IMG/VR virus record: IMGVR_UViG_3300045988_061891
Length of the DNA: 64,000 nucleotides
Source of the DNA: a virus
Direction: 5' to 3' (one strand)
The translations under genes and the position numbers were made by a program. The notes under the pieces are model-generated. The model saw nothing but the letters and a program-made list of their open reading frames with translations. It was not told where the DNA came from and did not search any database. Below are positions 6,783 through 44,500 of the stretch, piece by piece; the first letter of the stretch is position 1; every line of letters begins with the position of its first letter.

Positions 6783-7692
6783 CGTACTACTATAGTTTTC
6801 ACTACCAGATTACTCTGTTTGTAGTCTGGACTATGTCTTCACCCTTAGCTTTACCTATTAGGGTGCACCTGCATCTAGTCTCTGGGGCTGTAGCATTACC
6901 TACTATGCCTCCTCAAGTCAGTCAGTATTGTTTCCAATAAAGCCTTCGAGGATATTCAGGTGTAATAATATATTAGATTACTCTAATGCACGACATTGCA
7001 TATAATTCTTGTATTTAGTATTCTGCTTATTAGAGTTAATAGTTAAAGGAGGTAAATTTTCTAATCTGTATGAAAATCTATATCCCTTACATTGCTGATA
7101 TGTCCCATTAGTAACTCTACAAATACTAGACTCACTGATACCTAGTCTTCTAGCAGTATCTTTAAGCCCTAATGGATTCTCAAACAGCAATTTTCCCTCT
7201 AAATTATATACATATACTGTAACAGGATTAAAGTTCCATTCTAGTTTTCCTTCATTATGAAGTCTTCTTCTAGTGTCTCCTTGTTTTATCCTTGATTCTT
7301 TGGATAGAATATTTCTCTTAACTATTCTAGTTATGTTGTATTCTGCTCCAAATAAATCTATACAATATTGCTCTTTTTCTGTAAGATTGTCACAATCACA
7401 AAGTTCTAAGACAAACCATCTAAAATTACTCTCACCATACTTATCCCAAGCACTTTGCAAGTGAGGGTTCTGATGTTTATTATGCCTAAGTAAGGCAAAA
7501 TGTTTTAACAACCTTTGATATATGTTCTTTGAACTTCCTATATAGGTTTTGTGATTGATGATGTTCTCAATGCAGTATATACCAGATACTTTTAATTCCT
7601 TTGTAATCTTATTCATAATGTTTTATATTTTACTGCAAATATAAAACAAAATTTCCAAATATACAATAGAATAAATGAATTACTTAGCTTTT
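6783..7692 (-). mobile_element. group I self-splicing intron carrying a GIY-YIG homing endonuclease ORF
   Basis: Interrupts the helicase P-loop. The 3' 195 nt are GC-richer and contain R-like CAGAGACUAGAUGCAGG (6868-6886) and S-like GAAGACAUAGUCC (6828-6840) elements, giving P7 GACUA/UAGUC. The 5' exon ends in U and the intron ends in G. Confidence 0.7.
6978..7616 (-). CDS. GIY-YIG homing endonuclease (intron-encoded)
   Basis: SGIYCIENIINHKTYIGSSKNIYQRLLKH...SAWDKYGESNF...EKEQYCIDL matches the GIY-YIG, R and E/N motifs. The C-terminal region looks like an HTH DNA-binding domain. Confidence 0.8.
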   Translation of the reverse strand: MNKITKELKVSGIYCIENIINHKTYIGSSKNIYQRLLKHFALLRHNKHQNPHLQSAWDKYGESNFRWFVLELCDCDNLTEKEQYCIDLFGAEYNITRIVKRNILSKESRIKQGDTRRRLHNEGKLEWNFNPVTVYVYNLEGKLLFENPLGLKDTARRLGISESSICRVTNGTYQQCKGYRFSYRLENLPPLTINSNKQNTKYKNYMQCRALE

Positions 7693-9644: not shown

Positions 9645-10128
9645 TACTGTTTACAATCCGTTTAAGTTTATGAATATATTTAGGGTCTTCTGCATATCCT
9701 ACCCTCTGAAGAAAACTATAGTAGTCTTCAGGAGGTTTATATCTCTTTTGCACCCACTCCTTATATGCTATAACACTCTTTGTCCAGTGGTCAAATCTAT
9801 GGTACCTATTAGTCCTACTATTGTATAGACCAAACAGATTATTATGTCTCAAACATCCTACTGATGTAAAGTGTCCTGTCTCAAGCAGTGCCTGAGCATA
9901 CACTATATCAGGGTGAGTGACATCATAATATTTAAGGGCATCTGCTAAGCCCTCTTTCATAGGTTTGTCCATAAATACTGGGACAGGGGTTATAGTGTCA
10001 GGAGGTGAAGTAACATCATGATTGGGTGGTCCAGCTTTATCTTCAAATTGGTGTATGAAGATAATACCAGCTGTACATATCCCAATCATCAATGCTACTT
10101 TGATGAAGTTTTTGATTCTTTCTGTCAT
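9601..10128 (-). CDS. membrane-anchored N-acetylglucosaminidase (FlgJ/LytD-type glucosaminidase domain)
   Basis: N-terminal TM segment ALMIGICTAGIIFI, then AQALLETGHFTS...NNLFGL, characteristic of the glucosaminidase family. Confidence 0.6.
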   Translation of the reverse strand: MTERIKNFIKVALMIGICTAGIIFIHQFEDKAGPPNHDVTSPPDTITPVPVFMDKPMKEGLADALKYYDVTHPDIVYAQALLETGHFTSVGCLRHNNLFGLYNSRTNRYHRFDHWTKSVIAYKEWVQKRYKPPEDYYSFLQRVGYAEDPKYIHKLKRIVNSNDKRRSLEGSKGNS

Positions 10129-11282
10129 CTTAGTTGTTTGATGTTTGATTCAATACTATCATTGTAGTAGACATGGTCTGGTACATAGTGTAGATTATCC
10201 ACAAGAGTATCAAGAATTTTCTCTTTCCCATGGATATTGTAATGAGGGGAGCCTGAGTTGTCAAGGTAATCCCAGCTATATATGCTATACTCCTCATTAT
10301 CTATGATATGAGTCATATCCATATGTGTAACAACTAAGTTAAGAGATATATTGTACTTCTTCACATAGTTGTCTATACAGTGCCTTTCATAGGCTCTGTT
10401 AAGGAGACCCATCTCAAGGATACCTGTCTTGAAGTTTCCCTGAAACTCATTGTCTATGTTAGACTCATATTTATCAGTCAGTTTATTAGGCTCTCTGAGC
10501 CTGTGTTTAGGTTCATAGCCATTACCATGTCTGGTAGTGTAAGTCCTAGTGACAAGGTACACCTCTGCATCCTTAAGGACAGAACTTCTGAGACCATTAA
10601 GTCCCACTCTTGAAGGAGTTACATTGGGGTATAGTCCACAGTCCATGTCAAGAAGCAACCCCTGTGTTCCCTCAAATATAAGAACATTATAGTCCTTTAT
10701 TGAGGGCTTATCGGAATATACTTCTGTAAGAATCTCAAGACAGGATTTCTTAAACATATCATCATATTTAGGAATCCTCTCTATCTTGTGATAGTTTGAC
10801 GCGCACTTAAGGATATACTCAGGCTTGTCCAGACTGAAAGAGACTCTTGTCCACTGACCATGTTTATACCTCTCAAATGTAGGATATATACCCTTGCCAC
10901 AAGTTCCATCTGATATTACCTTGCTGTTGTTTCTTCCAGCAAGAACATCATAGGGTGTGATAATTCTATGTACACCACGGAATAGCTTTGGAGACACTCC
11001 TTTACACTGTAGAGTTCTGAACTCATTCATAAGACATATGGGGTCCATATATACCTCTTCTGTATACATAGTAGGTACACCAAGTAATACACCACTTCCA
11101 AAAGAGGAACAGATATGCTCTGTTCCCCCATTGAAAATAGTATGTGCTGCTTGGGGACCACCTGAGAATCTTACCACAAGTGGTTTCTTCCCTTCTTCAA
11201 TAGCCTTTTTGCAAAGCCACTGAACAGTCACCCCTTTTCCTTCATCGCCAAAGGTGTGACCCAACACTATTTTAACTTCCAT
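10125..11282 (-). CDS. adenylosuccinate synthetase family protein (PurA-like; PurZ-like cannot be excluded)
   Basis: N-terminal GHTFGDEGKGVTVQWL P-loop, GGPQAAHTI (GHT-type His) and TRHGNGY. At 385 aa it is shorter than typical bacterial PurA. Confidence 0.65.
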   Translation of the reverse strand: MEVKIVLGHTFGDEGKGVTVQWLCKKAIEEGKKPLVVRFSGGPQAAHTIFNGGTEHICSSFGSGVLLGVPTMYTEEVYMDPICLMNEFRTLQCKGVSPKLFRGVHRIITPYDVLAGRNNSKVISDGTCGKGIYPTFERYKHGQWTRVSFSLDKPEYILKCASNYHKIERIPKYDDMFKKSCLEILTEVYSDKPSIKDYNVLIFEGTQGLLLDMDCGLYPNVTPSRVGLNGLRSSVLKDAEVYLVTRTYTTRHGNGYEPKHRLREPNKLTDKYESNIDNEFQGNFKTGILEMGLLNRAYERHCIDNYVKKYNISLNLVVTHMDMTHIIDNEEYSIYSWDYLDNSGSPHYNIHGKEKILDTLVDNLHYVPDHVYYNDSIESNIKQLR

Positions 11283-11355: not shown

Positions 11356-12144
11356 TCATTTTGTAATATTCTTAAACAGTGTAGGTACCTGACCATAGAC
11401 TGGAAGCTTACCATCCCACTTCTCAATCCACATTTTCTCAAGAATCTGAGGAGTAAGAGCCTGTTGTTTCAGTCTGTTAGCTTCTGCTTCTGCCTGTGCT
11501 GCCACAATAAGAGACTTGGCTTTTGCCTCTGCAACTTTTACTTCATTCTCAGCTGCTTGAGCCTGTTGAATCTTCTCATTTTTAGCATTTACAGCCTTTA
11601 CAATAGTCGCAGGGTATTTGAGACCAGAAGTAAGTTGTTCAAGCTGGAAGTTTTCTCTTAACAAAGCTGTAGTTAGATACTTCTCAATAGCATTCTCAAT
11701 AGAGTCCCTATTACTTACAATGTAGTCAGTAGTAAAGTTGTTGAGCTGGATTCTGAAGGCATCTTTCACATAGTTATAGAGGGTTCCATGGACTATTTCA
11801 TCCAGTTTCTTCCTGTACTTCTTGAATACAAGAGGAGACTTACCGTCTATAATCTTCAGTGATACGGTAGGGTCAACAGTGAACTCAGAACCATCTTTTG
11901 CATTAATGGTGAAGGGTTCGTAGTCAACAGTCTGCACAAAGGTAGGATACTCGTACACTGACTGGGTGAATGGGTTGTACCATACCATGCCAGTACACAT
12001 AGATACATCACCTACACCCTTGTCATCACCATAGAGATTAACAAGAATACCTTCGTGTCCTGCATCTATTTTCTCGCAAGAACTCATACCTACTATAGCC
12101 ATACAGGCTACAAACATTACAAGAATTTTTTTAATTGTTCTCAT
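11356..12144 (-). CDS. SPFH/band-7 (prohibitin/stomatin-like) lipoprotein
   Basis: Signal peptide with lipobox VGMSSC. SPFH-like core followed by an Ala/Glu-rich coiled coil AQAAENEVKVAEAKAKSLIVAAQAEAEANRLK. Confidence 0.55.
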   Translation of the reverse strand: MRTIKKILVMFVACMAIVGMSSCEKIDAGHEGILVNLYGDDKGVGDVSMCTGMVWYNPFTQSVYEYPTFVQTVDYEPFTINAKDGSEFTVDPTVSLKIIDGKSPLVFKKYRKKLDEIVHGTLYNYVKDAFRIQLNNFTTDYIVSNRDSIENAIEKYLTTALLRENFQLEQLTSGLKYPATIVKAVNAKNEKIQQAQAAENEVKVAEAKAKSLIVAAQAEAEANRLKQQALTPQILEKMWIEKWDGKLPVYGQVPTLFKNITK

Positions 12145-12579: not shown

Positions 12580-12993
12580 TTAATCATCAAGGATTTCATA
12601 GCTGTAAGATACAGCATGAAAGTCATGTGCTAATAGGTCAAAGTGCTTCTTCAACCTCTCATGTACTGACATAGTGTCCCAAACTCTCTCTATCACATCT
12701 CCATCCTTGTTTCTTTTTGTAGGCCTAGAGAGTTTGACAGAGGTAGGAGTTGAAAGCATATACTCATATGCTTCTTCACAGATGTTGAGTTTCTGAATGG
12801 CCAACTTCTGCTTTCTGGTACGGATAACCAGAGATTTCTCTCTCTCCTTCTGATGTTTACCTTTTCCTTTGGTGAATCTGATAAGCATCTTGTCCTCATT
12901 GTAGTTCTCTTTGGGTTTTTTATCACACTCCTGCGAGCTGAGCATATTTGCACCTGGTACAAAAAAGCTCAGACTTACTTTTAATTCTGTCAT
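12580..12993 (-). CDS. hypothetical basic protein
   Basis: 137-aa ORF immediately downstream of the RNA cluster. Confidence 0.55.
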   Translation of the reverse strand: MTELKVSLSFFVPGANMLSSQECDKKPKENYNEDKMLIRFTKGKGKHQKEREKSLVIRTRKQKLAIQKLNICEEAYEYMLSTPTSVKLSRPTKRNKDGDVIERVWDTMSVHERLKKHFDLLAHDFHAVSYSYEILDD

Positions 12994-13030
12994 AAAATTA
13001 ATATAAGGTGAATAAATGTTTTCTAAAAAT

Positions 13031-13139
13031 AGCTACTTAAGTGATACATTGACAGTGTATTGCATTAACCACTATGCTAATCATTCATGGCGAATAATAT
13101 AGGATTCGAACCTATGAAGTAATAGTATTGTAAGTAGCT
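13031..13139 (-). tRNA. circularly permuted tRNA-Asp(GUC)-like gene: the 3' half precedes the 5' half, bracketed by a 9-bp helix
   Basis: Minus strand reads AGCTACTTA-CAATACTATTACTTC-[ATAGG TTCGAAT CCTAT]-ATTATTC-G-CCA-T-[GAATGAT TA GCAT AGTGGTTA ATGC A ATACA CTGTCAA TGTAT]-CACT-TAAGTAGCT. The acceptor strands pair 7/7 (one G-U). The outer 9-mers are perfect complements. Confidence 0.6.
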
Positions 13140-13143
13140 GAAG

Positions 13144-13267
13144 TAAGGCAGAGAAGAATCGAACTTCTGTTATAGGGACCCATTTTATTAATATAATATA
13201 GTGTTGTAAGTATCTTTAGATACTATATATTTATTAACCTATGTCCTAACCACTAGACGACTGCCTT
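13144..13267 (-). ncRNA. tRNA-shaped RNA with the anticodon loop replaced by a 61-nt AU-rich hairpin
   Basis: Perfect acceptor AAGGCAG/CTGCCTT, D-arm GTCT AGTGGTTA GGAC, T-arm AGAAG TTCGATT CTTCT and stem ATAGG/CCTAT enclose 13177-13237. That insert contains the ACTTACAA box. Confidence 0.5.
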
Positions 13268-13287
13268 ATGAAATTGGCACTACTTTT

Positions 13288-13362
13288 TATGCACTGATGG
13301 AATTGAACCATCTCTAATTGTACCCAAATTACAATTGTCCTAACCAAGTAGACGAAACGCAG
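13288..13362 (-). tRNA. tRNA-Gln(UUG)
   Basis: Hand-folded cloverleaf: CTGCGTT TC GTCT ACTTGGTTA GGAC .. loop ATTTGGG .. GATGG TTCAATT CCATC AGTGCAT A. Confidence 0.7.
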
Positions 13363-13387
13363 AATTATTATTGTAAGTGCCAAAAAG

Positions 13388-13495
13388 TGGGGAAGGTAGG
13401 AGTCGAACCTACATTGAATAATTTAAAAGATTATTGCTTATTTATATGATATTGTAAGTACCATTAGATACTATGTCCGTTTTAGCTACTTCCCC
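13388..13495 (-). tRNA. tRNA-Lys(UUU)-like gene interrupted by a 34-nt insert between the D-arm and the anticodon arm
   Basis: GGGGAAG TA GCTA AAACGGACA TAGT A [insert 13435-13468] ATAAT CTTTTAA ATTAT TCAAT GTAGG TTCGACT CCTAC CTTCCCC A. The insert folds as ATGGTA-CTTACAA-TATCAT. Confidence 0.55.
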
Positions 13496-13512
13496 TTGTG
13501 TAGTCACTATTT

Positions 13513-13586
13513 ATGTACATGTTAGAATCGAACTAACTACCCTTGAATTACCAGTTCAATGCTCTAACCAAATGAGCTAATGTTAT
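13513..13586 (-). tRNA. tRNA-Thr(GGU), acceptor stem unpaired at 1-3:70-72
   Basis: TA GCTC ATTTGGTTA GAGC A TTGAA CTGGTAA TTCAA GGGTA GTTAG TTCGATT CTAAC. The acceptor ATAACAT/ATGTACA pairs only at positions 4-7. Confidence 0.55.
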
Positions 13587-13650
13587 TAGTATTGTAAGTG
13601 ACTTCATTCCAATTCTTCAATTGGACAATAATTTAACAAGCTTAAATTGC

Positions 13651-13774
13651 GCCTATCATAGGGATTCGAACCCACTTTTTACTGACCTCTTCATCTCATA
13701 CCTACCTAGGTCAGTATGAGATTGCACAGCTTTTGGAATTCTTAATATGTGCACTAATAAGAATTCATGATAGG
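13651..13774 (-). ncRNA. 124-nt tRNA-like RNA (acceptor-type terminal helix plus T-loop, expanded body)
   Basis: CCTATCA...TGATAGG is a perfect 7-bp terminal helix. T-loop GGGTTCGAATCCC. 9-bp hairpin GAATTCTTA/TAAGAATTC. Interleaved complements ATCTCATAC/GTATGAGAT and CTGACCT/AGGTCAG. Confidence 0.4.
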
Positions 13775-13783
13775 CCTTAGTAA

Positions 13784-13810
13784 GTATAGGAGGCATCACT
13801 CCTCCTATAC
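13784..13810 (-). other. 10-bp stem-loop (GTATAGGAGG / CCTCCTATAC) running into a TACTTACTAAGG box
   Basis: Perfect inverted repeat with a 7-nt loop and no U-tract. It lies between the vWA gene and the 124-nt RNA. Confidence 0.5.
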
Positions 13811-13816
13811 CTTTAT

Positions 13817-13876
13817 TGATACTTAATAGCATTGATATTAACTTTTAAATGAGCTATAAAAATGTTGTAAGTATCA
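13817..13876 (-). other. ACTTACAA-box unit: 9-bp bracket helix TGATACTTA / TAAGTATCA enclosing a 42-nt segment
   Basis: Same architecture as the brackets around the tRNAs, but the enclosed sequence has only an ATAGC/GCTAT hairpin. Confidence 0.4.
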
Positions 13877-13891
13877 TTGGCTTTTGAACTA

Positions 13892-15715
13892 TTAAAGCAC
13901 GTTTTCTCTTACTATATCATATCTATTACTCCTAAATAATGATTGTAAAGGAGTATAGACATCCATAATATCCATATCTTTGAAGTTAGTTAAGAACTGT
14001 TCAATCTGCGCTACATTAGCAGGGATATAAATCATGTTCTCAATACCTTCAAATCTGTCGATAGAAGCACTATTGAAACCCCAACCACCATCTACATCAA
14101 TAGCTACAATATATGGCTTAAATCCAAAGTATCTTTGACACTTCATCATAAAGGCATTCATTGAAGCCTCAGGAGACTTTAATGAGTTCCACTCACCATC
14201 GCTGATGATAGTCCATACAGGATAGTTCTTTAGAGCATCAAGTATCTGAGGATTATTCTGACATTCTTTGTGCAAATCATCAGGTATGTTACTGATGTAA
14301 GTACAACCACCTTGGAATACTGCCTTACAGAAGCTCTTGATAGATTGATAGTTCTCATAGAAACTCTTCTTAGGGTCAACAAAAGGAGTTTGCTTGGTTT
14401 TTACTGTTTCACTTCTGATGAAAGAGTTTACAGAGTTATTCTTTCTGTCTATACAAGTATGCCAGTGACTTCTACTATTGAAGAAACCAAGTAAGTTTCT
14501 ACCATCATCATCTGGATTCTTACATAGACATACAGAAGCTAAGAATGTAGCAAAGTTAAAGGGACTACCGCCCATAGAGCCCGAATCATCTATAATCACA
14601 AGACTATTATAAGGAAGATTAACCTTAGTCATGAATGTTTCAAGCTTTAATTTATCTACATTATCACAACAGATGTCATTATATAGCTCTTTGAAGTTAG
14701 TTGCTCCTACAGTAACTTTAGCCTGCTTTGCAACTTTCTTCAACTTGATTTTATCTTCCTCTGTAGCCTGTCCCTGTCTAACCTTTTCTTCTAGAACTCT
14801 TTGTTCAGCTTGCTTAGATTCCTTGTATTTCTCCCATTCAGCAAGCCAAGGCTGGAACTTAGAATATTTAGCTTCTTCAGTATCTTTAATTTTACTGTAA
14901 AGAATTCTGTTCTTAACTCTAAATCTTGCTTGTGAAGGAAGCTTGTCAAACCAATCAATAAATGATTGTTCGTCAAACTCATTGATTTTACCTGTAGAGA
15001 ACAGTACTGACTCGAGGTCACCATTATAATCCTTTCTCCATTTCCTGTAGCCTTTGAAGTTTGCATAGTTTTCGCTTACTTCATACTCCCAACCCATAAG
15101 CTCTGAGAGCATTATGAGTAACTTGACCTTATCTTCCATTACCTTTTTAGTTTCAGGAAGCATCTTTTTATGATTGCTTCTTTTACTTACTCTAGGAAGT
15201 GTCAAGAATTTAGCAACAAGAGTTTTATTGAAAGGATTATTACTGTTGATAACCTTATAGAGGTAGTTTACAATAACCTCTCTGTATTTTGCTTCAGCAA
15301 AGAGATTGTGTATTCTGGTAACTCTAGAACCCTTTGTCTGTACTCTATTTCTAAACAGTAAGTCAAAGCAAGTATATTCATTGAACAAACCTGCTTCAAG
15401 GAACTTCACAAATTGAGTTTGACGTTTCTTCCACATCCACTCAAGGACTACTTGAAAACCTTCTCTATTGGCATTACCACCACTATCCTTCTTAATACCC
15501 TTAAAGATATTATGTTGTCTAGCTGTAATATCACCAATTGAGAAAAGTAAACTAAAGAACATTTGCTTATGCTCCTTATTCCATCGAACTTCTGACCAAC
15601 AAGCATCAAGTAATGCTGTGTCAATCGTGTTGCCTACACTCTGAAAGAGTTTAAGGCAATTCTTTAACCCATAAAAAGGATTATCGTTACTTTTATTTAA
15701 CTTTACCTGTACCAT
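13892..15715 (-). CDS. DUF2828-like helical domain plus von Willebrand factor A (vWA) domain protein
   Basis: 607 aa. MIDAS motif in VIIDDSGSMGG. The N-terminal ~370 aa are helical (NPFYGL...LLDACW...FSIGDITARQ...LEWMW), resembling DUF2828-type proteins (family name recalled, not searched). Confidence 0.65.
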   Translation of the reverse strand: MVQVKLNKSNDNPFYGLKNCLKLFQSVGNTIDTALLDACWSEVRWNKEHKQMFFSLLFSIGDITARQHNIFKGIKKDSGGNANREGFQVVLEWMWKKRQTQFVKFLEAGLFNEYTCFDLLFRNRVQTKGSRVTRIHNLFAEAKYREVIVNYLYKVINSNNPFNKTLVAKFLTLPRVSKRSNHKKMLPETKKVMEDKVKLLIMLSELMGWEYEVSENYANFKGYRKWRKDYNGDLESVLFSTGKINEFDEQSFIDWFDKLPSQARFRVKNRILYSKIKDTEEAKYSKFQPWLAEWEKYKESKQAEQRVLEEKVRQGQATEEDKIKLKKVAKQAKVTVGATNFKELYNDICCDNVDKLKLETFMTKVNLPYNSLVIIDDSGSMGGSPFNFATFLASVCLCKNPDDDGRNLLGFFNSRSHWHTCIDRKNNSVNSFIRSETVKTKQTPFVDPKKSFYENYQSIKSFCKAVFQGGCTYISNIPDDLHKECQNNPQILDALKNYPVWTIISDGEWNSLKSPEASMNAFMMKCQRYFGFKPYIVAIDVDGGWGFNSASIDRFEGIENMIYIPANVAQIEQFLTNFKDMDIMDVYTPLQSLFRSNRYDIVRENVL

Positions 15716-15737
15716 TTGCTAATGTTTTATTTTATTT

Positions 15738-15745
15738 TTGTAAGT
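15738..15745 (-). promoter_or_regulatory. ACTTACAA box about 20 nt upstream of the vWA gene start (candidate promoter element)
   Basis: Minus strand reads CGTTACTTACAAAAATAAAATAAAACATTAGCAAATG. The same 8-mer occurs 6 more times in 13128-13872. Confidence 0.35.
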
Positions 15746-15800
15746 AACGTAGTTAGGATATTCTTTTTATCTTTGAACTATATATGTCTTCCTTATACTA

Positions 15801-24323: not shown

Positions 24324-24415
24324 GGAAGTTTAATCAGTAGGAGCTGAAAGATTCTCTTGGAAAAGAGAGGATTGACCTATGGAAAGGTATAGGGGTTCGA
24401 GTCCCCAAACTTCCT
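24324..24415 (+). tRNA. type II tRNA-Ser(GGA)-like with an 8-nt anticodon loop
   Basis: GGAAGTT/AACTTCC acceptor, D-arm TCAG TAGGAG CTGA, stem TTCTC/GAGAG enclosing TTGGAAAA, variable arm ACCT ATGGAA AGGT, T-loop GGGG TTCGAGT CCCC. Confidence 0.5.
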
Positions 24416-24417
24416 CT

Positions 24418-38544: not shown

Positions 38545-41500
38545 ATGGCGAATAAAGTTTATGATAAAGAAATAAATAAGCACTCTGACTGGGGTGGTGA
38601 TGCTAGTACAGAAAATCTGCCTGTCAGTGGGTCTAGGGTTCAAGAGTTTATAAAAAAGACTCTTGACGGTAAAATGGGGGTGTTCTATTATGACACAACC
38701 AATAATAGGTATCTTGTATTTGCTGATATTGAAAATAGGGATTTATATCTAGAGGACCCAACCAAGAATGAGTTGGTGCTAGGAACTTTTGATGCTCCAT
38801 TTAATTATGAGGCAGAGATAAATCTAATATCAGGCTCGTATAAAGCTGTTCAATTAGGTTCTACAGGAAATTATGTAGAATTCATCTTTGACACAAAGAA
38901 TAAACAAGGGGCTTCAGTAGGTGGTCTTGCTACTGTTACTTACACAATAATAAGAAACTCTACAAAGAAAGTTATTACTGAAACTCGTAATAGCAGAAGT
39001 ACTGTAAAATTCAATTTAGATAAGTACTTAGGTGAGGGTACAAATACTATTATCATAGGTATAACAGATAAAAACACCCTTGCAGCTACCACAGTTTCTG
39101 TCACATATCAAGTAGTTAATCTTACCATTAAAGATGAGCTCAATATATCAAAGGTTTATGACCTTTCTTCTGCCACTTCCCTTAATATGGAAGTACTATT
39201 TAATATTTCTGGATATGGTACGAAGACAGTAGAATGGTATATAGATGGTGAACAACTTGAGTTTGTTAAAGAGGAAGATGAAGTAGTAGATGTAGAGGCG
39301 TCTAGAACTAAGTATATCACTCTGTCTAATTTACAACAAGGTAGGCACTCATTACAACTTAGAGCACACTCTATAGTGAATGGTGAGAAGTTCTATACAA
39401 ATACCTTGTATAGGGATTTTATAGTATATACTGGTGCATCTACAGATACTATACTTGGTATTGCTATTGAGGTACCTTCAGAGCATGGTATAATAGGCCC
39501 CTCAGATAATGTATCAATATATAATATGGAGCAATATGTTCCATATAGTTTGAGGTTTGCTTCTTATTCTCCTACTAATGAACAAAACATAGAGGTAGGT
39601 ATCTATCTTAATGATGAGTTAAATGGAGCTATAACCTCGAGTAATGATACTGAAAATAACTATACGTTAGTATCTTCTAAGTCTGGAAATAAAGTGTTGA
39701 AGCTTGTGTCTGGGAAAGTAGAATATACAATCCCTGTTGTAGTGACTCCTACATCTATGAATATAAGTGACATCACTAATAATCTTGAACTGGATTTCAC
39801 AGCTGTAGGAAAAAGTAATTCTTCTCCCAATAGAGATATATGGTCCTATAACGGATATACAGGAACATTCTACGGTTTTAAGTGGAATGATGTTTCAGGT
39901 TGGGTTAATAATAGATTGTTAATGCCATCAGGAACTTCATTCTCTATAGATTATGCTCCGTTGGATAATAACCCTACAGGAACAGGAAAGACTATTGAAT
40001 TAGAGTTCTCTACATTAAATGTGAGAGAGGATGATGCTATTATATGTGACCTAAGGAATGCTAGTGGTACTGGATTACTTATAACTGCAACTAAAGTATC
40101 ATTGACTTCTGAGAATGGTGTTACTGTAGAAACTGAATTTAGGAGTGGTGAGAATGTAAGAATAGCGTTTGTTATAAATAAGAGTAGTGGTACTCTTAAT
40201 AAGTGTCTTTCTTTTATTTATACTAATGGTATTATATCTAGAGGAGAGGCATGGTCAGCTACTGATAAATATGATTCTCCTAAAACCATTAAATTCACTG
40301 CATCTGATAAAGTAGAAGTATCTCTTAAGGCTATAAGAATATATAACACTGCATTAACTTCTGACCAAATTCTCAATAACTATATTCTCTATAGAGATAG
40401 TATAGAAGAGATGACCTCTGTATATGAGAAGAATGATGTGTACACAGAAGGAACTACATCTTTTGACCCTAATAAGATGATGAGTAGAGTACCAGTGATG
40501 ATAGTAACTGGTGACATCCCAGTACTTGAAAATATCTCGGATAAGAATACTCAGATAATAGTAGATATAGACTACTACAACATGCAGGACCCTACTAGGA
40601 ACTTTAGTATGGTTAGTGCAGCTATGAGACCACAGGGTACATCTTCCATGGGTTATCCTAAAAAGAATTTTAGAATTTATACACAGAAGGTTGATGATAC
40701 AATATTATACGATTCTAATGGAAAGGTTGTTCAAGACAAACTATACTCTTTTAGGGAGGGTTCACAACCTGTTAATTGTTGGTGTCTTAAAGCTGATTAC
40801 GCAGAGTCTTCTGGTACTCATAATACTGGTATTGCTAAATTATGGAACAAAGCTCTATACAATGTTCAAATAGGCGGAGAATATGTATGTAGAACTAATG
40901 CTCAAAAAGCAGCTATTGTTGCAGATTATGAGTATGATGTAAGAACTGCTATTGATGGATTTCCTATACTTTTATTCTATAGAAAGACTAAGAATGATGA
41001 CCTTATATTTATAGGTAAGTATAACTTTAATAATGATAAATCCACAGAGAGTGTATTTGGTTTTAAAGGAATTCCTGGTTTTGATAATTCCAGAATGCAA
41101 TGCTGGGAGGTACTCAACAATGGTAATTCTTTAGCTCTATTTACTACCTCCGAGAACTTTGACACTAAATGGGAAGATGCTTTTGAAAGTAGATACCCTG
41201 ATACAAGCAATCCAGACATATCAGACTTAAAGACCTTTGCAGAGTGGATGAGCACTGTTTCTCAAGAAAACTTTGCTACAGAGAAATGGGAACATATGGA
41301 CATCTATAAACTGGCTGCATATTATGTATATATTCTAAGACATGCGGCAGTTGACCAAACTGTAAAGAACGCAATGTTTACTTCAGAAGATGGGTCCCAC
41401 TTCTACTATATTCACTATGATAATGATACTGTTCATGGTCTTATAAATACTGGTAGACTAAGAGTAAAACCAACAGATGACAGACAGTCTACTGATGATT

Positions 41501-44500
41501 CTGGTGCTTACTTATTTGCAGGTCATGACTCTAGACTTTGGAATATGCTTGAAAAGGATAAAGAATTCATGGGCATAGTTCAAAAGATGGATAATGCTTT
41601 ATATTCTGCGGGTATATCATATATCAATATAATTGATATGCTTGATGGAGAGCAGGCAGATAAATGGGTAGAAAGGGTTTATAATCAAGATGCTCAATAC
41701 AAGTACATTGGACCATATGCAGAGAAAGGAATTGATAACCTATTCATGTTACAAGGTAAAAGAGACTTACATAGAAAATGGTGGTTAGCAAAGAGGTTCT
41801 CTATATATGATGCTAAGTTTATTACAGGTCCTTATAAATCGCAGTCTATTGAGTTTAAATGTATCAATGGTACTCCTGCTGGTCAACAGTTTACTATTGT
41901 GTCAGGCTACCCAATAAACTTTGGATATGGCATTAATGATGAACCAAGAGAAACAGGTATTTATCTCGACAAAGACGGCGAGCATACATTTACTACTACT
42001 GAAGTACTTAATGTTGGTGACCCTATTAGAATATATGGTGCTCCTAATATTAAGGTTTTAGATACTAGGAAGATGGCTGATAAGCTAGCTACTATATCAA
42101 TAGCAGCTGTTTATGATGATAACTTAGGTACTTGTCTTACTCACCTTCGGCTTGGTAGCTCTTCATTAATTAATAATGAGGTTACTGCAATATCGGGATT
42201 AAAGCAGGCTAAAAGGTTAGAGTTTATAGATATAAGAAGTTTCAAAAAGTTGACTTCATTAGACCTATCAGAACATCAATATATTAAATCAGTATGGGCC
42301 TCAAATTCAGGCATAGCTTCCCTACTACTAGCTAAAGGAAGCCCTGTTCAAGTTCTTAAGCTCCCTGCTACTATAACTAATTTAACATTAGAGCAGCTCT
42401 CACTCTTAGCTTATAGTGCCATAACCTTTGATGATATTAAAACTCTGAAGAATATAAGTATCAAAGATTGTCCTCTTGTAAGCAATAACTTTGGTTTTAT
42501 CTATAATTGGTTCAATACTAAAGCAACAGATTCAAGTGAGTGTTCACTAGTAATGGATAATATAAATTGGACTAATGTAGATACTGCACAGTTACTTAGT
42601 TTAAAGGCTCTTGGTACTCTTAAATTAAAGGGTAGGATTAAACTAGTTGAAGTGAGTGAATCTCAGTTATCTGAGCTTCAGGCAGTGTTTGGAAATAATA
42701 TATTTAATTCATCATCTGAGTTATATATTATAGCTCCTCCTGCTGTATACTTAGTTGGTCCTGAGTCTTTAACTGAAGGTGGTACTGGTAAATATTCATG
42801 TGTTGTATCTGGTGCTGAATTACAATCAGCCTCTTTCTCTATAACATCAGGTAGCAGCTCAGCAATAACTCTAGATTCTACTACTGGTGTATTAACTACT
42901 ACAGAAGGTGCAGGTGGTAGAGTAATTACTGTGCAATTAATAGCTAAAATACGAAAGGAGGGAGAGACTAAAGTCACAACCACAACAAAGACAATGACTA
43001 CTAGGATTCTTCCAAAGACATACCCCTCAAGTGAGGACACAACACTTGAAGGAGATAGTCAGTTAGGAGTAGAGACTACTTATACAATAAAACATTCCAA
43101 TACTTATACAGGAGATTTTAATGTAACTTGGTCTTTAACTGGTCTTGATGGTTATGCAGAAATTACAGAGTCTAATAAAACTTCTTGTACTATAAAAAGG
43201 CTTCAAGTCATTAATACTGTTATAAGTGGTACTCTAACAGCAAAGTTCACTAAAGTTTATAATGGTTCTGCATTATTTACTTTATCAAAGTCTGTTCAGT
43301 TAGTTAATGACGACATTGCTGTTGCTGATGCTAAAATAGCAAAAGTATTCTATGATGCTAAATTATGTGCCAATAGTACCTATGTTACCAAAGAAGAGGC
43401 TGCTTCAATTACTACGGCTGATATACAGCCTGGTATTAATTATTCTACCTCTATATTTAGGTCATTAGACTCAGATTATTCTGGTGATTTTAGCGGATTC
43501 AAGTATTTTACATCAGTCACCGCTTTAAAAGATTATATGTTTGCTAGTAGACACTTTGAGCATTTATGCCTCCCCAACACTATAACTCTTATAGAGAGAG
43601 GCTCGGGATTGCGGTATGTGAAGCGTTTAGAGATAAATGAGGGACTTTCAGAGATGCATCTACTCTTTGAAGGGCAATACCTTAGTCTTCCAAATATTAC
43701 TTCTCCATCGAAGGGGGACATAGCCCTCTACGTAAATAATTCTGGTATGACCGTCACAGGGGGTAATAGTATGCCCAATACACTTCGTTATTTTCTTACT
43801 TTTTATACTACTAAAAAAGAAGGGTTATCAATAGAGAGCACAAATATCAGAGCACTAGTTAGTAATCAACTCTTCCAAATAACTAAGCTTGTAGTAGGAG
43901 GAGATGCTGGATTACCTACTACTGTTACAGCACCCTCAGGAGGGTACTTCGAAGATATGAATACCACGCAAAAGATTATTCTTGAGAAGATTAATACTAA
44001 TGTATATAAGATAGCCAATGAGATATATTATGCCACAGTAGTTATAGACACCAATATGTCTGAGCAAAACCCTGACTTCTTTGTTACTTATACCAACCAT
44101 GATGGCGAAGAAGTTCAAACTACAGTTAAGGCAGGTACTCATGTACTACCTATAAAGTATGGTACTACAGTTAAAGTAGTAGGCTCAGAGATAGAAAATC
44201 TTATGGTTTCTGATGGTAGTTGGTCATTTAGTGGTACAAGGTGTAAGGGTAGTATTTCTATGAATTATGTTGAAGCCGCTGATGTATATATTCAACATAT
44301 AGATGGCACTCTTTATACTAAAGATGATTGGAAGTCAAAAGGCTTTGCTAACGAGAAGGCAAATGGTGTTGCAGTAGTTAGACCAATTAGTGGCAGTTTT
44401 GTTATTGCTAAAGAGCAGGGTCCCAGTTTGGCATGGGGAGGTTATGATACCACTATTACAGGTATAGTTACAAGCACTTCACTTTCTACAGCAGTTTTAG

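What the first reader, a model, noticed from the sequence alone, without database searches (positions are those of the whole stretch)
13031..13876. Seven exact ACTTACAA boxes, each tied to an RNA unit by flanking complementary brackets
The minus-strand 8-mer ACTTACAA occurs at plus-strand coordinates 13128, 13204, 13371, 13452, 13592 and 13865, and again at 15738 upstream of the vWA gene. I did not see it elsewhere in the window in this orientation. In four units, the bases 5' of and overlapping the box pair with a sequence downstream of the enclosed RNA. These pairs are TTGGCACT(T)AC / GTAGTGCCAA around tRNA-Gln, AGTCACT / AGTGACT around tRNA-Thr, AGCTACTTA / TAAGTAGCT around the permuted tRNA-Asp, and TGATACTTA / TAAGTATCA around a 42-nt unit. 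In two units the box lies inside the tRNA-body insert. The box could be a phage-specific promoter or start signal; it differs from the TAnnTTTG promoters on the other strand. It could also be a processing or ligation signal, or the footprint of a small mobile cassette that shuffles tRNA pieces.
Basis: seen in the sequence. Interest (0 to 1): 0.7.

Follow-up and report, generated by a model that had tools for sequence, protein, structure and literature searches.

The report
Y-RNA-like box-stem RNAs beside phage Ro60-like gene
The repeated ACTTACAA box is one half of a conserved RNA stem-plus-bulge tag on a family of small, mostly tRNA-shaped RNAs and on the mRNA of the neighbouring gene in gut crAss-like phages; that gene encodes a protein shaped like the RNA-binding protein Ro60, so this is probably an undescribed phage version of the Ro60/Y-RNA system, not a promoter.

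Summary
There are seven exact minus-strand ACTTACAA boxes, all non-coding, six of them within 750 nt (P about 1e-12).

The box extends to G-N-Y-ACTTACAA-W-A. It is conserved in 27 related Crassvirales loci whose neighbouring protein is 50-98% identical.

In 77% of 186 boxes, the 4-5 nt before the box plus ACT pair with a downstream AGT+complement (4% at control sites). A further 11% form the same duplex as a local hairpin. UACAAWA stays unpaired.

The helices enclose tRNA-like bodies, circularly permuted tRNA-like bodies (T arm, closed acceptor hairpin, D arm, as in bacterial YrlA Y RNAs) or short 40-60 nt units.

The same module sits on the leader of the adjacent 607-aa gene and usually encloses its start codon. 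That protein is an alpha-solenoid plus vWA domain, and its best solved-structure match is Deinococcus Ro (Rsr).

Family members at 24-34% identity keep the architecture with lineage-specific boxes (TATAATA, TAGAATTAA, TAGTAA).

A promoter reading fails: in two relatives the start codon lies 1-4 nt after the box.

Best reading: a protein-binding tag of a Ro60/Y-RNA-like ribonucleoprotein with autoregulation. This is inferred, not demonstrated.

The parts
15685..15749 (-). Box-stem module on the leader of the 607-aa gene. 5' arm CGTTACTT is at 15742-15749, the box at 15738-15745, the start codon at 15713-15715, and the 3' arm AAGTAACG at 15685-15692 inside codons 8-10.
   Evidence: (the helix appears in the unconstrained MFE fold). 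The helix is kept in relatives with covarying outer pairs: CGTTACT/AGTAACG, TGTTACT/AGTAACA, AGTTACT/AGTAACT. In L032 it is TTTCACT/AGTGAAA at the same codon position.
13892..15715 (-). Gene for a 607-aa protein: an N-terminal alpha-solenoid of about 360 aa plus a C-terminal vWA domain with a MIDAS motif (D375-x-S377-x-S379). It is Ro60-like in architecture and is the proposed partner of the box-stem RNAs.
   Evidence: AF2 model: pLDDT 90.6, pTM 0.86. Foldseek against PDB: top hit 2NVO (D. radiodurans Rsr), E 5.4e-5, 624 aligned columns, TM 0.27/0.31. BFVD: DUF7788/VWFA proteins, TM 0.5-0.65. Weak profile hits to Ro60/TROVE chains. Pfam VWA_2 in 26 of 70 family members and vWA_Ro60 in 2.
13817..13876 (-). 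Cassette C1: 9-bp box stem (TGATACTTA/TAAGTATCA) enclosing a 42-nt unit without a tRNA fold.
   Evidence: (MFE -12.5 kcal/mol, z -4.5).
13778..13811 (-). Strong 11-bp hairpin (13783-13811). Its 3' arm runs into a one-mismatch box ACTTACTA (13778-13785), making a degenerate local-hairpin form of the module.
   Evidence: (MFE -16.3, z -6.4).
13648..13776 (-). tRNA-like / tmRNA-like structured RNA: a 9-10-bp acceptor-type stem, a T arm, and two internal hairpins with pseudoknot potential. It starts 1 nt after the degenerate box. Among close relatives it is present only in the window and L001.
   Evidence: weak tmRNA T-loop match; MFE -40.9, z -4.2.
13502..13603 (-). Cassette C3: 7-bp box stem (AGTCACT/AGTGACT), an internal loop containing UACAAUA, and a tRNA-like body (D, anticodon GGT and T arms) with only a 4-bp acceptor stem.
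   Evidence: (RNAalifold recovers the closing helix and the three arms but no full acceptor stem; compensatory changes are seen).
13388..13495 (-). Unit Y: a tRNA-shaped RNA with a 7-bp acceptor, D arm, anticodon-type arm with loop CUUUUAA, and T arm. A roughly 35-nt insert between the D and anticodon arms holds a local hairpin (13458-13471) and the box (13452-13459).
13274..13383 (-). Cassette C5: 8-bp box stem (TTGGCACT/AGTGCCAA) enclosing a Gln-like tRNA-like body with a 9-nt anticodon loop.
   Evidence: (33 bits). In L007-L009 the same stem (TTGGTACT/AGTACCAA) encloses a short unit with no tRNA body, 34 nt in L007.
13144..13267 (-). Unit X: a Glu-like tRNA-shaped RNA with a 61-nt insert in the anticodon region. 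The insert forms a long hairpin tipped by AGUAUCU-aa-AGAUACU (13209-13224), with the box (13204-13211) as a 3' bulge.
   Evidence: (44.5 bits, 61-nt insert). The anticodon stem covaries in relatives: ATAGG/CCTAT against ACAGG/CCTGT.
13031..13139 (-). Cassette C7: 9-bp box stem (AGCTACTTA/TAAGTAGCT) enclosing a circularly permuted tRNA-like body. The order is T arm, 7-bp acceptor closed by the loop G-CCA-U, D arm, anticodon arm (GUC). This is YrlA-like.
   Evidence: In orthologues the anticodon triplet is GTC/GTT/TTT/GAT/TCA, or the arm is deleted.

Best explanation
What the module is. The box is the sequence-specific half of an RNA module made of two parts:
- a 7-10 bp helix, formed by 4-5 variable nt plus ACU(UA) on one strand and (UA)AGU plus the complement on the other;
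- directly after it, on the box strand, the unpaired conserved UACAAWA.

Where it sits. The module closes, or is inserted into, a set of small RNAs transcribed from the minus strand just downstream of the 607-aa gene. It occurs once more on that gene's own leader.

Proposed function. It is the binding site for the product of that gene, a solenoid+vWA protein with Ro60-like architecture. The RNAs would be Y-RNA-like partners: a stem plus bulge that holds the protein, and a tRNA-mimicking or other 'effector' module, as in bacterial and phage Ro60/YrlA particles. Binding to the leader helix, which encloses or abuts the start codon, would give translational feedback.

How the RNAs are made. The compact array is most simply one precursor. 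It would be cut at the two units with full acceptor stems (X, Y) and at other tRNA-like ends by host RNase P/Z, releasing the stem-closed cassettes.

Shown: the motif, the helix and its covariation, the cargo types, the linkage to the gene across 24-98% protein identity, lineage-specific box variants, and the Ro60-like fold match.

Inferred: that the protein binds the module, the autoregulation, the processing route, and any downstream role (tethering a host RNase such as PNPase, RNA quality control, or decoying tRNA-targeting defences).
For: 1. Motif. G(-3) is present in 91% of boxes, Y(-1) in 95%, then ACTTACAA-W-A, across 171 distinct sites in 27 loci.
2. Helix. 143 of 186 boxes (77%) have a downstream partner extending 4 nt or more beyond ACT/AGT, against about 4% of 7,246 control ACT sites. 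Another 21 of 184 have the duplex as a local hairpin, against 1% of controls.
3. Helix geometry. The outward length is sharply 4 nt (77 cases) or 5 nt (45 cases). The 3' arm consensus is AGU-R-N-C-W-A-U. RNAalifold and unconstrained MFE folds recover the helix, with compensatory pairs UA/AU 8:7 and CG/UA 10:5.
4. Cargo. Of 120 distinct cassettes, 37 are in tRNA order, 29 are T-arm-first or T-arm only (19 of them with a D arm after the T arm, YrlA-like), and 40 are short without tRNA arms. Cargo is swapped or deleted between close relatives while stem and box persist.
5. Not decoding tRNAs. C3-type acceptors are 4 bp, with covariation ACAT/ATGT, GCAT/ATGC, GTAT/ATAC. The anticodon arm is absent in several C7 orthologues. 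With introns allowed, ARAGORN gives anticodons AAT and ATA.
6. Linkage. The module is confined to 13.0-15.8 kb of the 64-kb window.
7. Leader. The module is found within 130 nt upstream of the gene's start in 24 of the 27 loci and the window; in the other three (L019, L023, L025) only the 3' arm AGTAAC is seen next to the ATG. It is also upstream of the gene in L029, L031, L032 and L033. The arms covary even where the 3' arm is coding: CGTTACT/AGTAACG against TTTCACT/AGTGAAA, at the same position before the NPFYG codons.
8. Co-variation with the protein. The box is TACAAWA in the window clade, TATAATA at 34% identity, TAGAATTAA at 26% and TAGTAA at 24%.
9. Protein. A confident AF2 model has D. 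radiodurans Rsr as its top, and only full-length, strong PDB hit. Five of nine weak profile hits in the PDB are Ro60/TROVE proteins. vWA_Ro60 appears among the weak Pfam hits.
10. Precedent. YrlA RNAs are permuted-tRNA-like, lie within 4 kb of Ro60 on the same strand, and occur in phages (PMC4201824). Thermus phage phiLo Ro60 binds two adjacent Y-like RNAs and host PNPase (PMC12135203).
Against: - No binding or transcript data exist; all evidence is comparative.
- The Ro60 relationship is weak. TM-score to Rsr is only about 0.3, there is no Pfam TROVE hit, and NCBIfam and PHROGs are silent. The closest structural relatives are uncharacterised DUF7788/VWFA viral proteins.
- The box does not resemble the known Ro60-binding motif GNCGAAN0-1G / CGAA.
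- The position of the stem relative to the tRNA-like body is not fixed. It is found beyond the acceptor, in the variable region, in the anticodon loop and at position 26. That fits a generic tag better than one defined particle shape.
- UA-N-A-A-U resembles a -10 hexamer.
- Several C7-type cassettes keep a 7-bp acceptor followed by N-CCA and an intact anticodon arm, so some cargo may be real tRNA after processing.
Confidence: 0.55

Rival explanations
1. RNA processing or stability signal read by a nuclease. The stem plus the A/U-rich single strand marks the boundaries of units in a polycistronic precursor. A host endonuclease (RNase E/G/Y type) or an unidentified phage endonuclease cuts there. 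On the mRNA leader it would control decay. The neighbouring protein is not the reader.
For: The modules sit at unit boundaries in a tightly packed array, with 4-6 nt between units. The unpaired conserved segment is A/U-rich and lies next to a stem. 3' arms are often followed by A-U-rich or U-rich tails. The array alternates stem-closed cassettes with full tRNA-shaped units, which would be cut by RNase P/Z.
Against: Eight invariant bases plus G(-3) is much stricter than known RNase E/Y preferences. The box sequence changes in step with divergence of the adjacent protein, while the hosts are presumably all Bacteroidota-like. The module is confined to that gene's neighbourhood and its own leader. 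No nuclease gene was recognised among 28 window ORFs scanned.
Confidence: 0.17
2. Splicing or circularisation signal for fragmented tRNA genes. The helix brings together the ends of permuted, split or intron-containing tRNA genes, as the bulge-helix-bulge motif does in archaea and Cyanidioschyzon. An endonuclease and a ligase then produce mature, decoding tRNAs.
For: All three topologies expected from that model are present: permuted, insert-containing, and whole with leader-trailer pairing. Several permuted cassettes have a 7-bp acceptor followed by N-CCA and an intact anticodon arm: the window, L014, L018 and L024. Anticodon triplets change cleanly between relatives.
Against: The helix is a continuous 7-10 bp duplex without two symmetric 3-nt bulges. 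A third of cassettes hold no tRNA part. C3-type bodies have 4-bp acceptors, conserved as such. C7 orthologues often lack the anticodon arm. Removing the inserts gives anticodons AAT and ATA. The same module sits on an mRNA leader. No EndA, RtcB or Rnl-type gene was found in the scanned ORFs, and that scan was incomplete. The phage already carries ordinary tRNAs for Asp, Lys, Gln and Thr.
Confidence: 0.08
3. Phage-specific promoter. The box (TAnAAT-like) is a -10-type element for a phage sigma factor or RNA polymerase, and each cassette is its own transcription unit ending at the 3' arm plus U-run.
For: UACAAU, UAUAAU and UAGAAU fit TAnAAT. The motif is strictly strand-specific and lies upstream of RNA units and of one gene. 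T4 late promoters show that a -10-only promoter is possible (own knowledge). Some 3' arms are followed by U-runs.
Against: The covarying 5' arm lies upstream of the supposed -10 element, so it would not be transcribed. 31% of boxes end in A rather than T. There is no -35 or extended -10 signal, and the scan equals the shuffle expectation. In L017 and L032 the ATG lies 1 and 4 nt after the box. Boxes occur inside tRNA-shaped bodies, where initiation would yield only 3' fragments. Only one protein gene in 64 kb has the box.
Confidence: 0.06
4. DNA-level cassette system. The inverted arms fold in single-stranded DNA and, together with the box, form a recombination or transposition site (attC-like or IS200/IS605-like) that shuffles tRNA fragments.
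For: The layout is an array of same-orientation cassettes. Cargo differs between close relatives while the boundaries persist. The box contains TTAC, and arm complementarity is kept rather than arm sequence.
Against: No recombinase or Y1 transposase was recognised nearby. Particular arm identities (AGTCACT, AGCTACT, GTTACT) are kept at the same array positions in relatives down to about 50% protein identity, and AGTCACT and AGCTACT arms recur in L029 at 34%; this argues against frequent shuffling. One arm lies in an essential coding region and covaries with the UTR arm. The arms enclose the cargo instead of forming a compact site.
Confidence: 0.04

Closest known systems
Bacterial and phage Ro60 (Rsr) with YrlA-type Y RNAs (Chen et al. 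2014, PMC4201824; Wang et al. 2018, bioRxiv 10.1101/312249)
   Same: - Several small RNA genes lie next to, and on the same strand as, a solenoid+vWA protein gene.
- Each RNA is closed by a 5'/3' stem that has a conserved motif on the 5' strand at the stem/loop junction.
- The effector part mimics tRNA and is often circularly permuted: T arm, closed acceptor hairpin, D arm.
- A 7-bp acceptor with CCA occurs in some, as in M. smegmatis YrlA.
- Companion RNAs without a full tRNA-like domain exist, comparable to YrlB.
   Different: - The protein is not recognisable as TROVE by sequence and matches Rsr only weakly by fold.
- The conserved RNA motif is G-N-Y-ACUUACAAWA, not GNCGAAN0-1G.
- There are 6-9 RNAs per genome rather than 1-2.
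- The stem can sit at several positions of the tRNA-like body, or appear as an internal hairpin.
- The same module is on the protein's own mRNA leader.
- No Rfam family other than tRNA and tmRNA matches.
Thermus phage phiLo Ro60 with Yrl1/Yrl2 (PMC12135203)
   Same: A phage-encoded Ro60-type protein has adjacent Y-like RNAs, defined by a 5'-3' stem flanking a bulge with a short conserved motif. They are proposed to recruit host PNPase. In a profile search, this protein gives the best Ro60-family hit (second overall) to the crAss-like family (E 0.012, MIDAS region).
   Different: phiLo Ro60 is a bona fide TROVE protein, and its RNAs carry the CGAA motif. There are only two RNAs, located upstream of the gene. 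No leader operator is described.
DUF2828/DUF7788-type viral vWA proteins (BFVD: Acinetobacter phage ME3, Pithovirus, CroV, Myoviridae sp.)
   Same: These are the best full-length structural matches to the 607-aa protein (TM 0.50-0.65, E 1e-9 to 1e-11). One family member weakly hits Pfam DUF7788.
   Different: They have no known function, and no associated RNAs have been reported to my knowledge. Sequence identity is 12-16%.
Permuted, split and intron-containing tRNA genes processed through bulge-helix-bulge motifs (archaea, Cyanidioschyzon merolae)
   Same: Permuted, insert-containing and leader-trailer-paired tRNA-like genes coexist. In each, a helix joins the points that would be ligated.
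   Different: There is no BHB geometry, much of the cargo is not tRNA, the deduced anticodons are implausible, and no endonuclease or ligase was found.
Translational operators of RNA-binding proteins (for example the MS2 coat protein hairpin over the replicase start codon)
   Same: A stem with a specific unpaired sequence encloses or abuts the start codon of a gene in a phage. The arms are maintained even where one of them is coding.
   Different: Here the operator is a long-range 7-8 bp helix around about 50 nt. It is shared with a set of non-coding RNAs. Repression has not been shown.

Membership tests
Ro60/Y RNA (YrlA-type) ribonucleoprotein | The partner protein is a Ro60/TROVE orthologue: a HEAT-repeat ring plus a vWA domain with MIDAS. 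| tested here: inconclusive
   For: a solenoid+vWA architecture with invariant D375/S377/S379; Foldseek top PDB hit Rsr 2NVO at E 5.4e-5 over the full length; weak Ro60/TROVE profile hits. Against: TM is only 0.27/0.31; there is no Pfam TROVE, NCBIfam or PHROG hit; the nearest structures are DUF7788/VWFA viral proteins.
Ro60/Y RNA (YrlA-type) ribonucleoprotein | The RNA genes lie within about 4 kb of the protein gene, on the same strand. | tested here: met
   In the window all boxes lie between 30 nt upstream of the gene's start codon and about 0.9 kb downstream of its stop, on the same strand. The same holds in 27 relatives and in distant members L028, L029 and L031, where the modules lie within about 2 kb upstream of the gene on the same strand.
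Ro60/Y RNA (YrlA-type) ribonucleoprotein | A terminal 5'/3' stem carries the conserved Ro60-binding motif (GNCGAAN0-1G / CGAA) on the 5' strand. | tested here: not met
   A terminal stem with a conserved 5'-strand motif is present, but the motif is G-N-Y-ACUUACAAWA, with lineage variants UAUAAUA, UAGAAUUAA and UAGUAA. It is not CGAA.
Ro60/Y RNA (YrlA-type) ribonucleoprotein | A tRNA-like effector domain in the order T arm, closed acceptor-like stem-loop, D arm. | tested here: met
   Met in cassette C7 (13031-13139) and in 19 of 120 distinct cassettes, with 10 more that are T-arm only. It is also seen in L028 and L031. Other cassettes have different layouts.
Ro60/Y RNA (YrlA-type) ribonucleoprotein | A match to curated covariance models of Y RNA families. 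| tested here: not met
   cmscan of 12950-13950 at E up to 10 returns, for these units, only tRNA and weak tmRNA matches; the remaining hits are weak, on the opposite strand and far below their gathering scores.
Ro60/Y RNA (YrlA-type) ribonucleoprotein | The RNA is physically bound by the protein and tethers an effector such as PNPase. | not testable with these tools
   Needs EMSA, RIP or a structure.
Bacterial or phage promoter | Recognisable promoter elements at fixed spacing (-35/-10, or the Bacteroidota -33/-7 TAnnTTTG). | tested here: not met
   There is no information upstream of position -6. Sigma-70-type matches number 14 against 13.6 in shuffles, and only two overlap boxes. TAnnTTTG is present upstream of 6% of boxes, equal to background.
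Bacterial or phage promoter | Initiation a few nt downstream, giving a transcript that contains the start codon of the downstream gene. | tested here: not met
   In L017 the ATG lies 1 nt after the box, and in L032 4 nt after. The covarying 5' arm lies upstream of the box.
Bulge-helix-bulge tRNA splicing / permuted tRNA expression | A helix(4 bp) flanked by two 3-nt bulges at the exon-intron or leader-trailer junction. | tested here: not met
   The duplex is a continuous 7-10 bp, with a single conserved unpaired segment on one strand only.
Bulge-helix-bulge tRNA splicing / permuted tRNA expression | Removal of the insert, or rejoining, yields a canonical tRNA. | tested here: not met
   X gives Ile(AAT) and Y gives Tyr(ATA) with an odd variable arm. 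C3 has a 4-bp acceptor. Many C7 orthologues lack the anticodon arm.
Bulge-helix-bulge tRNA splicing / permuted tRNA expression | A splicing endonuclease and an RNA ligase are available. | tested here: inconclusive
   None was found among 28 window ORFs scanned with Pfam. The window is only part of the genome, many ORFs have no hits, and host enzymes were not examined.

The most novel reading that the evidence does not exclude
CrAss-like phages of this clade deploy a previously unrecognised Ro60-like ribonucleoprotein. Its 6-9 partner RNAs are tRNA mimics whose anticodon triplets are under diversifying selection: GTC/GTT/TTT/GAT/TCA in otherwise identical arms, and GGT/TGT/TAT/CAT in another cassette. 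On this reading they act as decoys or sensors for host tRNA-targeting defences (anticodon nucleases), or as exchangeable, non-canonically processed tRNAs held together by the box stem. The protein would load, protect or present them and would autoregulate through the same tag on its own mRNA.
Probability: 0.2. Interest if true: 0.88.

Novelty: new variant of a known kind. Interest (0 to 1): 0.68.

Why it matters
Crassvirales are the most abundant phages of the human gut, yet almost nothing is known about their non-coding RNAs.

If the reading holds, a whole clade carries an unannotated multi-RNA ribonucleoprotein system. The protein is currently labelled 'cobalamin biosynthesis protein' or hypothetical.

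This would extend the Ro60/Y-RNA principle to a protein family that sequence methods do not recognise. It would also give that family a simple, testable RNA recognition code: a 7-bp stem plus UACAAWA.

It would explain the odd 'broken', 'permuted' and 'intron-containing' tRNA genes that tRNA finders miss or mis-call in these genomes.

The anticodon-specific variation offers a direct handle on whether tRNA mimics take part in the phage-host contest over tRNA cleavage.

Practically, the motif can be used to annotate these RNAs in thousands of metagenomic phage genomes.

Tried and rejected
- **DNA similarity to deposited phages.** blastn and tblastn with the protein found nothing, so no cultured relative or published transcriptome could be used.
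- **Sequence annotation of the 607-aa protein.** PHROGs, Pfam, NCBIfam, and PDB phmmer/hmmsearch with a shallow profile gave no hits.
- **First AF2 model.** Built from a shallow alignment (pLDDT 73), it gave meaningless Foldseek hits. Only the deep alignment built from the representative search worked.
- **The search for related loci with the deep alignment.** Replaced by exact look-ups of distant members.
- **Literature.** Searches for permuted or split tRNAs in phages, for the box sequence, and for Ro60/Y RNA in Crassvirales found no prior description. Burroughs and Aravind 2016 on RNA repair systems is not held.
- **crAss virion RNA polymerase promoter.** Considered and dropped. The phi14:2 study found no common motif upstream of early transcripts, and the box is not distributed like a promoter.
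- **Target-site duplication around the X insert.** A direct repeat TTAATAAA flanks it, but this is not seen in relatives, so it was not pursued.
- **Intrinsic terminator reading of the 3' arm plus U-run.** U-runs follow only some cassettes and are absent inside the window's array. At most this is a secondary feature.
- **C7 as a recent rearranged copy of the phage's own tRNA-Asp.** Rejected: only 59% identity, no better than to other tRNAs.


Full report

ACTTACAA occurs on the minus strand at 13128, 13204, 13371, 13452, 13592, 13865 and 15738, exactly as reported. The other five copies in the window are on the plus strand and lie inside or antisense to ORFs. Dinucleotide shuffles give about 4.8 copies per 64 kb on both strands. 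Six copies within 750 nt on one strand therefore have a Poisson probability of about 1e-12.

I found three further things:
- A fifth bracket belongs to the box upstream of the vWA gene: CGTTACTT 15742-15749 pairs with AAGTAACG 15685-15692, inside codons 8-10.
- An eighth, one-mismatch box (ACTTACTA, 13778-13785) sits on the 3' arm of a strong hairpin.
- The two boxes that lie inside tRNA bodies have the same duplex as a local hairpin immediately upstream.

**2. What kind of genome is this?**

The window is an AT-rich phage. It has a terminase, portal and major head protein on the plus strand, replication-type genes on the minus strand, and 26 ARAGORN tRNAs. The nearest database protein to the vWA gene product is labelled Crassvirales. 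No deposited phage genome matches the region or the protein.

**3. The box in relatives**

A search of IMG/VR with the 607-aa protein returned 27 loci at 50-98% identity. In every one, ACTTACAA recurs on the gene's strand, with 1-10 copies per locus. Usually one copy lies about 30 nt upstream of the gene, one just after it, and several further downstream.

Aligning 171 distinct sites extends the motif to G(-3, 91%) N Y(-1, 95%) ACTTACAA W A. There is no information further upstream.

**4. The helix is general**

For each of 186 boxes I looked within 400 nt downstream for AGT followed by the complement of the bases preceding the box.
- 77% of boxes have at least 4 further complementary bases, against about 4% of 7,246 control ACT sites.
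- The outward extension is sharply 4 nt (77 cases) or 5 nt (45 cases). The inward extension is 0-2 nt. This gives a 7-10 bp duplex.
- The 3' arm consensus is AGU-R-N-C-W followed by A-U.
- A further 21 boxes have the partner immediately upstream as a tight hairpin (1% in controls). These are the boxes inserted in tRNA-shaped bodies.

Arm sequences differ between cassettes (AGTC, AGCT, TGAT, AGAC, CGTT, TTGGC), and each has a matching partner. Unconstrained MFE folding and RNAalifold both recover the helix, with compensatory changes UA/AU 8:7 and CG/UA 10:5.

The unpaired UACAAWA always lies on the cargo side of the duplex. The long-range and hairpin forms are therefore the same module with different connectivity.

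**5. What the helices enclose**

Enclosed lengths are bimodal, at 40-60 and 80-110 nt. The 120 distinct cassettes break down as follows:

| Cargo type | Count |
|---|---|
| D arm then T arm (tRNA order) | 37 |
| T arm then D arm (permuted, YrlA-like) | 19 |
| T arm only | 10 |
| Short, no tRNA arm | 40 |
| Other (D arm only 8; longer, no tRNA arm 6) | 14 |

The window's array, read on the minus strand, is:
- C1, a short cassette (13817-13876)
- a hairpin with the degenerate box (13778-13811)
- a tmRNA-like/tRNA-like structure (13648-13776)
- C3, a tRNA-like body with anticodon GGT (13502-13603)
- Y (13388-13495)
- C5, Gln-like with a 9-nt anticodon loop (13274-13383)
- X (13144-13267)
- C7, permuted (13031-13139)

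Only 4-6 nt separate the units from C3 to C7.

**6. The cargo mimics tRNA more than it is tRNA**

- The C3-type body has only a 4-bp acceptor stem in all relatives, and that stem covaries (ACAT/ATGT, GCAT/ATGC, GTAT/ATAC). The three top pairs are never formed. Rfam aligns only model positions 4-67.
- C7 is T arm, 7-bp acceptor closed by G-CCA-U, D arm, anticodon arm. In L002, L006, L007 and L009 the anticodon arm is missing, and the D arm runs straight into the 3' arm.
- With introns allowed, ARAGORN calls X as Ile(AAT) and Y as Tyr(ATA), which are implausible anticodons.
- Cargo is replaced or deleted between close relatives while stem and box persist. For example, the TTGGYACT stem encloses a Gln-like body in the window but only 34 nt in L007.
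- The ordinary tRNAs of the phage (plus-strand array and 17.5-19.8 kb) have no box.

**7. Link to the neighbouring gene**

In the 64-kb window, a relaxed scan (CTTANWA with a partner of at least 7 nt) finds the module only at 13.1-15.7 kb.

The gene's own leader carries the module. A box lies within 130 nt upstream of the start in 24 of the 27 loci and in the window; in L019, L023 and L025 only the 3' arm AGTAAC is seen next to the ATG.
- GTTACT pairs with AGTAAC. The 3' arm is either the Ser-Asn codons just before the conserved NPFYG motif or lies 1-2 nt before the ATG.
- The outer pair covaries: C-G, T-A, A-T.
- In L014 the partner has moved to a different Ser-Asn codon pair.

**8. Distant family members**

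A profile search of 1.8 billion cluster representatives finds only 183 clusters, so the family is small. Exact look-ups of members at 22-34% identity show the same architecture with lineage-specific boxes:

| Locus | Protein identity | Module |
|---|---|---|
| L029 | 34% | 8-bp stems + UAUAAUA, one directly before the gene |
| L028 | 26% | five AG-N4-CT stems + UAGAAUUAA (a sixth copy has only a 6-nt, 300-nt-distant match), one enclosing a YrlA-like body |
| L031 | 24% | 7- and 10-bp stems + UAGUAA, a YrlA-like cassette just upstream of the gene |
| L033 (443-kb contig) | 22% | AUUUUACU UAGAAUAAU ... AGUAAAAU in the 5' UTR |
| L032 | 31% | UUUCACU UAAAAUG ... AGUGAAA enclosing the start codon, with the 3' arm at the same position before NPFYG as in the window |

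Control CT sites in these loci have partners of at least 7 nt in 2-6% of cases. The RNA module and the protein therefore travel and diverge together.

**9. The protein**

Sequence libraries are silent on the window protein: PHROGs, Pfam, NCBIfam and the PDB give nothing significant. Only the vWA domain is detected, and only in distant members: VWA_2 in 26 of 70, vWA_Ro60 in 2.

With a deep alignment, AF2 gives a confident model (pLDDT 90.6, pTM 0.86). It consists of a roughly 360-aa helical solenoid and a vWA domain with an invariant MIDAS motif.
- Foldseek against the PDB ranks D. radiodurans Ro (Rsr, 2NVO) first, at E 5.4e-5. The alignment spans 624 columns, but TM is only about 0.3. Every other significant hit is vWA-only.
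- A profile search of PDB sequences returns nine weak hits. Five are Ro60/TROVE proteins, including the Thermus phage phiLo Ro60, all aligned at the MIDAS strand.
- In BFVD the best full-length matches (TM 0.50-0.65) are uncharacterised DUF7788/VWFA proteins of a myovirus, Acinetobacter phage ME3, a pithovirus and CroV.

My reading is that the protein is Ro60-like in architecture and possibly distantly related. It is not demonstrably a TROVE family member.

**10. Comparison with the known system**

Bacterial and phage Ro60 genes are flanked, within 4 kb and on the same strand, by Y RNAs. These have a 5'/3' stem with a conserved 5'-strand motif and often a tRNA-like domain arranged as T arm, closed acceptor stem-loop, D arm; that is, circularly permuted tRNAs. 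M. smegmatis YrlA has a 7-bp acceptor, is cut by RNase P and receives CCA (PMC4201824; bioRxiv 10.1101/312249). Thermus phage phiLo Ro60 binds two adjacent Y-like RNAs and host PNPase (PMC12135203).

C7 and its relatives fit this description feature for feature, except for the sequence of the conserved motif.

The differences are:
- many RNAs per genome
- variable placement of the stem on the tRNA-like body
- internal-hairpin versions of the module
- short cargo-less cassettes
- the copy on the mRNA leader

I found no paper connecting Crassvirales with Ro60 or Y RNAs in the held library.

**11. Why not a promoter?**

UA-N-A-A-U does look like a -10 hexamer. Against that reading:
- The covarying 5' arm lies upstream of it.
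- 31% of boxes end in A.
- There is no -35 or extended -10 signal, and the two-hexamer scan equals the shuffle expectation.
- The host-type TAnnTTTG element is no more frequent upstream of boxes than elsewhere (6% against 6.5%). A few relatives (L013, L016, L017, L023) have one 16-25 nt upstream of the first cassette, which would place the whole module inside the transcript.
- Boxes sit inside tRNA-shaped bodies.
- In L017 and L032 the start codon lies 1 and 4 nt after the box.
- The phi14:2 study found no common motif for early crAss-like promoters.

**12. Why not tRNA splicing?**

The three topologies recall archaeal and red-algal fragmented tRNA genes. However:
- The duplex has no bulge-helix-bulge geometry.
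- A third of cassettes hold no tRNA part.
- The deduced products are not canonical tRNAs.
- No endonuclease or ligase was recognised among 28 ORFs. That test was incomplete.

I keep this as a minor rival because some C7-type cassettes retain a 7-bp acceptor, N-CCA and an intact anticodon arm.

**13. An unexplained feature**

Among five lineages whose C7 anticodon arms are otherwise identical over 17 nt, the only differences are in the triplet: GTC, GTT, TTT, GAT, TCA. If six or more substitutions fell at random, the chance that all would land in those three positions is about (3/17)^6, roughly 3e-5 (my estimate).

The C3-type cassette shows GGT, TGT, TAT and CAT among close relatives, while U33 and A37 are kept.

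This could be drift at positions freed from decoding. It could also be selection, for example to match host tRNA-targeting nucleases, or real anticodon switching of a processed tRNA. I cannot tell which.

**14. Verdict**

The finding is real and not ordinary. The box is half of a conserved RNA stem-bulge tag. It marks a family of Y-RNA-like, largely tRNA-mimicking RNAs and the leader of the adjacent Ro60-like gene in a clade of crAss-like phages.

The most likely mechanism is recognition by that protein, with feedback on its own mRNA (confidence about 0.55). That it is an RNA-level structural signal of some kind is much more certain, about 0.8.

It is best classed as a new variant of the Ro60/Y-RNA kind.

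Noticed in passing
window 13648-13776 (-): A 129-nt structured RNA with a 9-10-bp acceptor-type stem (GCCTATCAT/ATGATAGGC), a T arm, a 12-bp internal hairpin, and a second hairpin whose loop (TGACCT) can pair downstream (AGGTCA) as a pseudoknot. It is tmRNA-like, but no tag ORF was called. Among close relatives it is present only in the window and L001; the others have a short GACACT-stem cassette at that position.
   Followed up: partly
window 13031-13139 (-) and orthologues in L003, L004, L005, L011; window 13502-13603 (-) and orthologues: The anticodon triplet differs between close relatives while the rest of the anticodon arm is identical: GTC/GTT/TTT/GAT/TCA in C7-type cassettes and GGT/TGT/TAT/CAT in C3-type. 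The variation is restricted to positions 34-36.
   Followed up: partly
window 10125-11282 (-): An adenylosuccinate synthetase homologue (Pfam Adenylsucc_synt, 3e-30) whose PHROG family description reads '2-aminooxy adenylosuccinate synthetase' (a PurZ-type label, by my own reading). This may point to modified (2-aminoadenine) DNA in this phage.
   Followed up: no
window 11356-12144 (-): An SPFH/Band-7 family protein is encoded two genes downstream of the RNA array. From memory, Band-7 proteins accompany some RNA-repair operons; I could not check this because the paper is not held.
   Followed up: no
window 24324-24416 (+): ARAGORN calls a 93-nt tRNA with a four-base anticodon (ggaa) and undetermined identity inside the regular plus-strand tRNA array.
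   Followed up: no
L032 1322-3927 and L033 6088-6630: In distant family members from 186-kb and 443-kb contigs, the solenoid+vWA gene sits next to tellurite-resistance-type genes (TerD, TerC, and a TerF-like vWA gene).
   Followed up: no
window 6978-7616 (-): A GIY-YIG / NUMOD-type homing endonuclease gene lies within the replication gene block.
   Followed up: no
window 38545-44859 (+): A 2104-aa ORF matches large uncharacterised PHROG families and has a weak CotH kinase domain hit. I did not confirm that it is the crAss-type virion RNA polymerase.
   Followed up: no
window 13783-13811, both strands: The strong hairpin after cassette C1 is conserved in relatives, with covarying arms (for example GGTATAGGAGG, GTGTAGGGGAG, GGGTGGGTGAGG). 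The simple scan scores it as a terminator on the opposite (plus) strand. Its role is unclear.
   Followed up: partly
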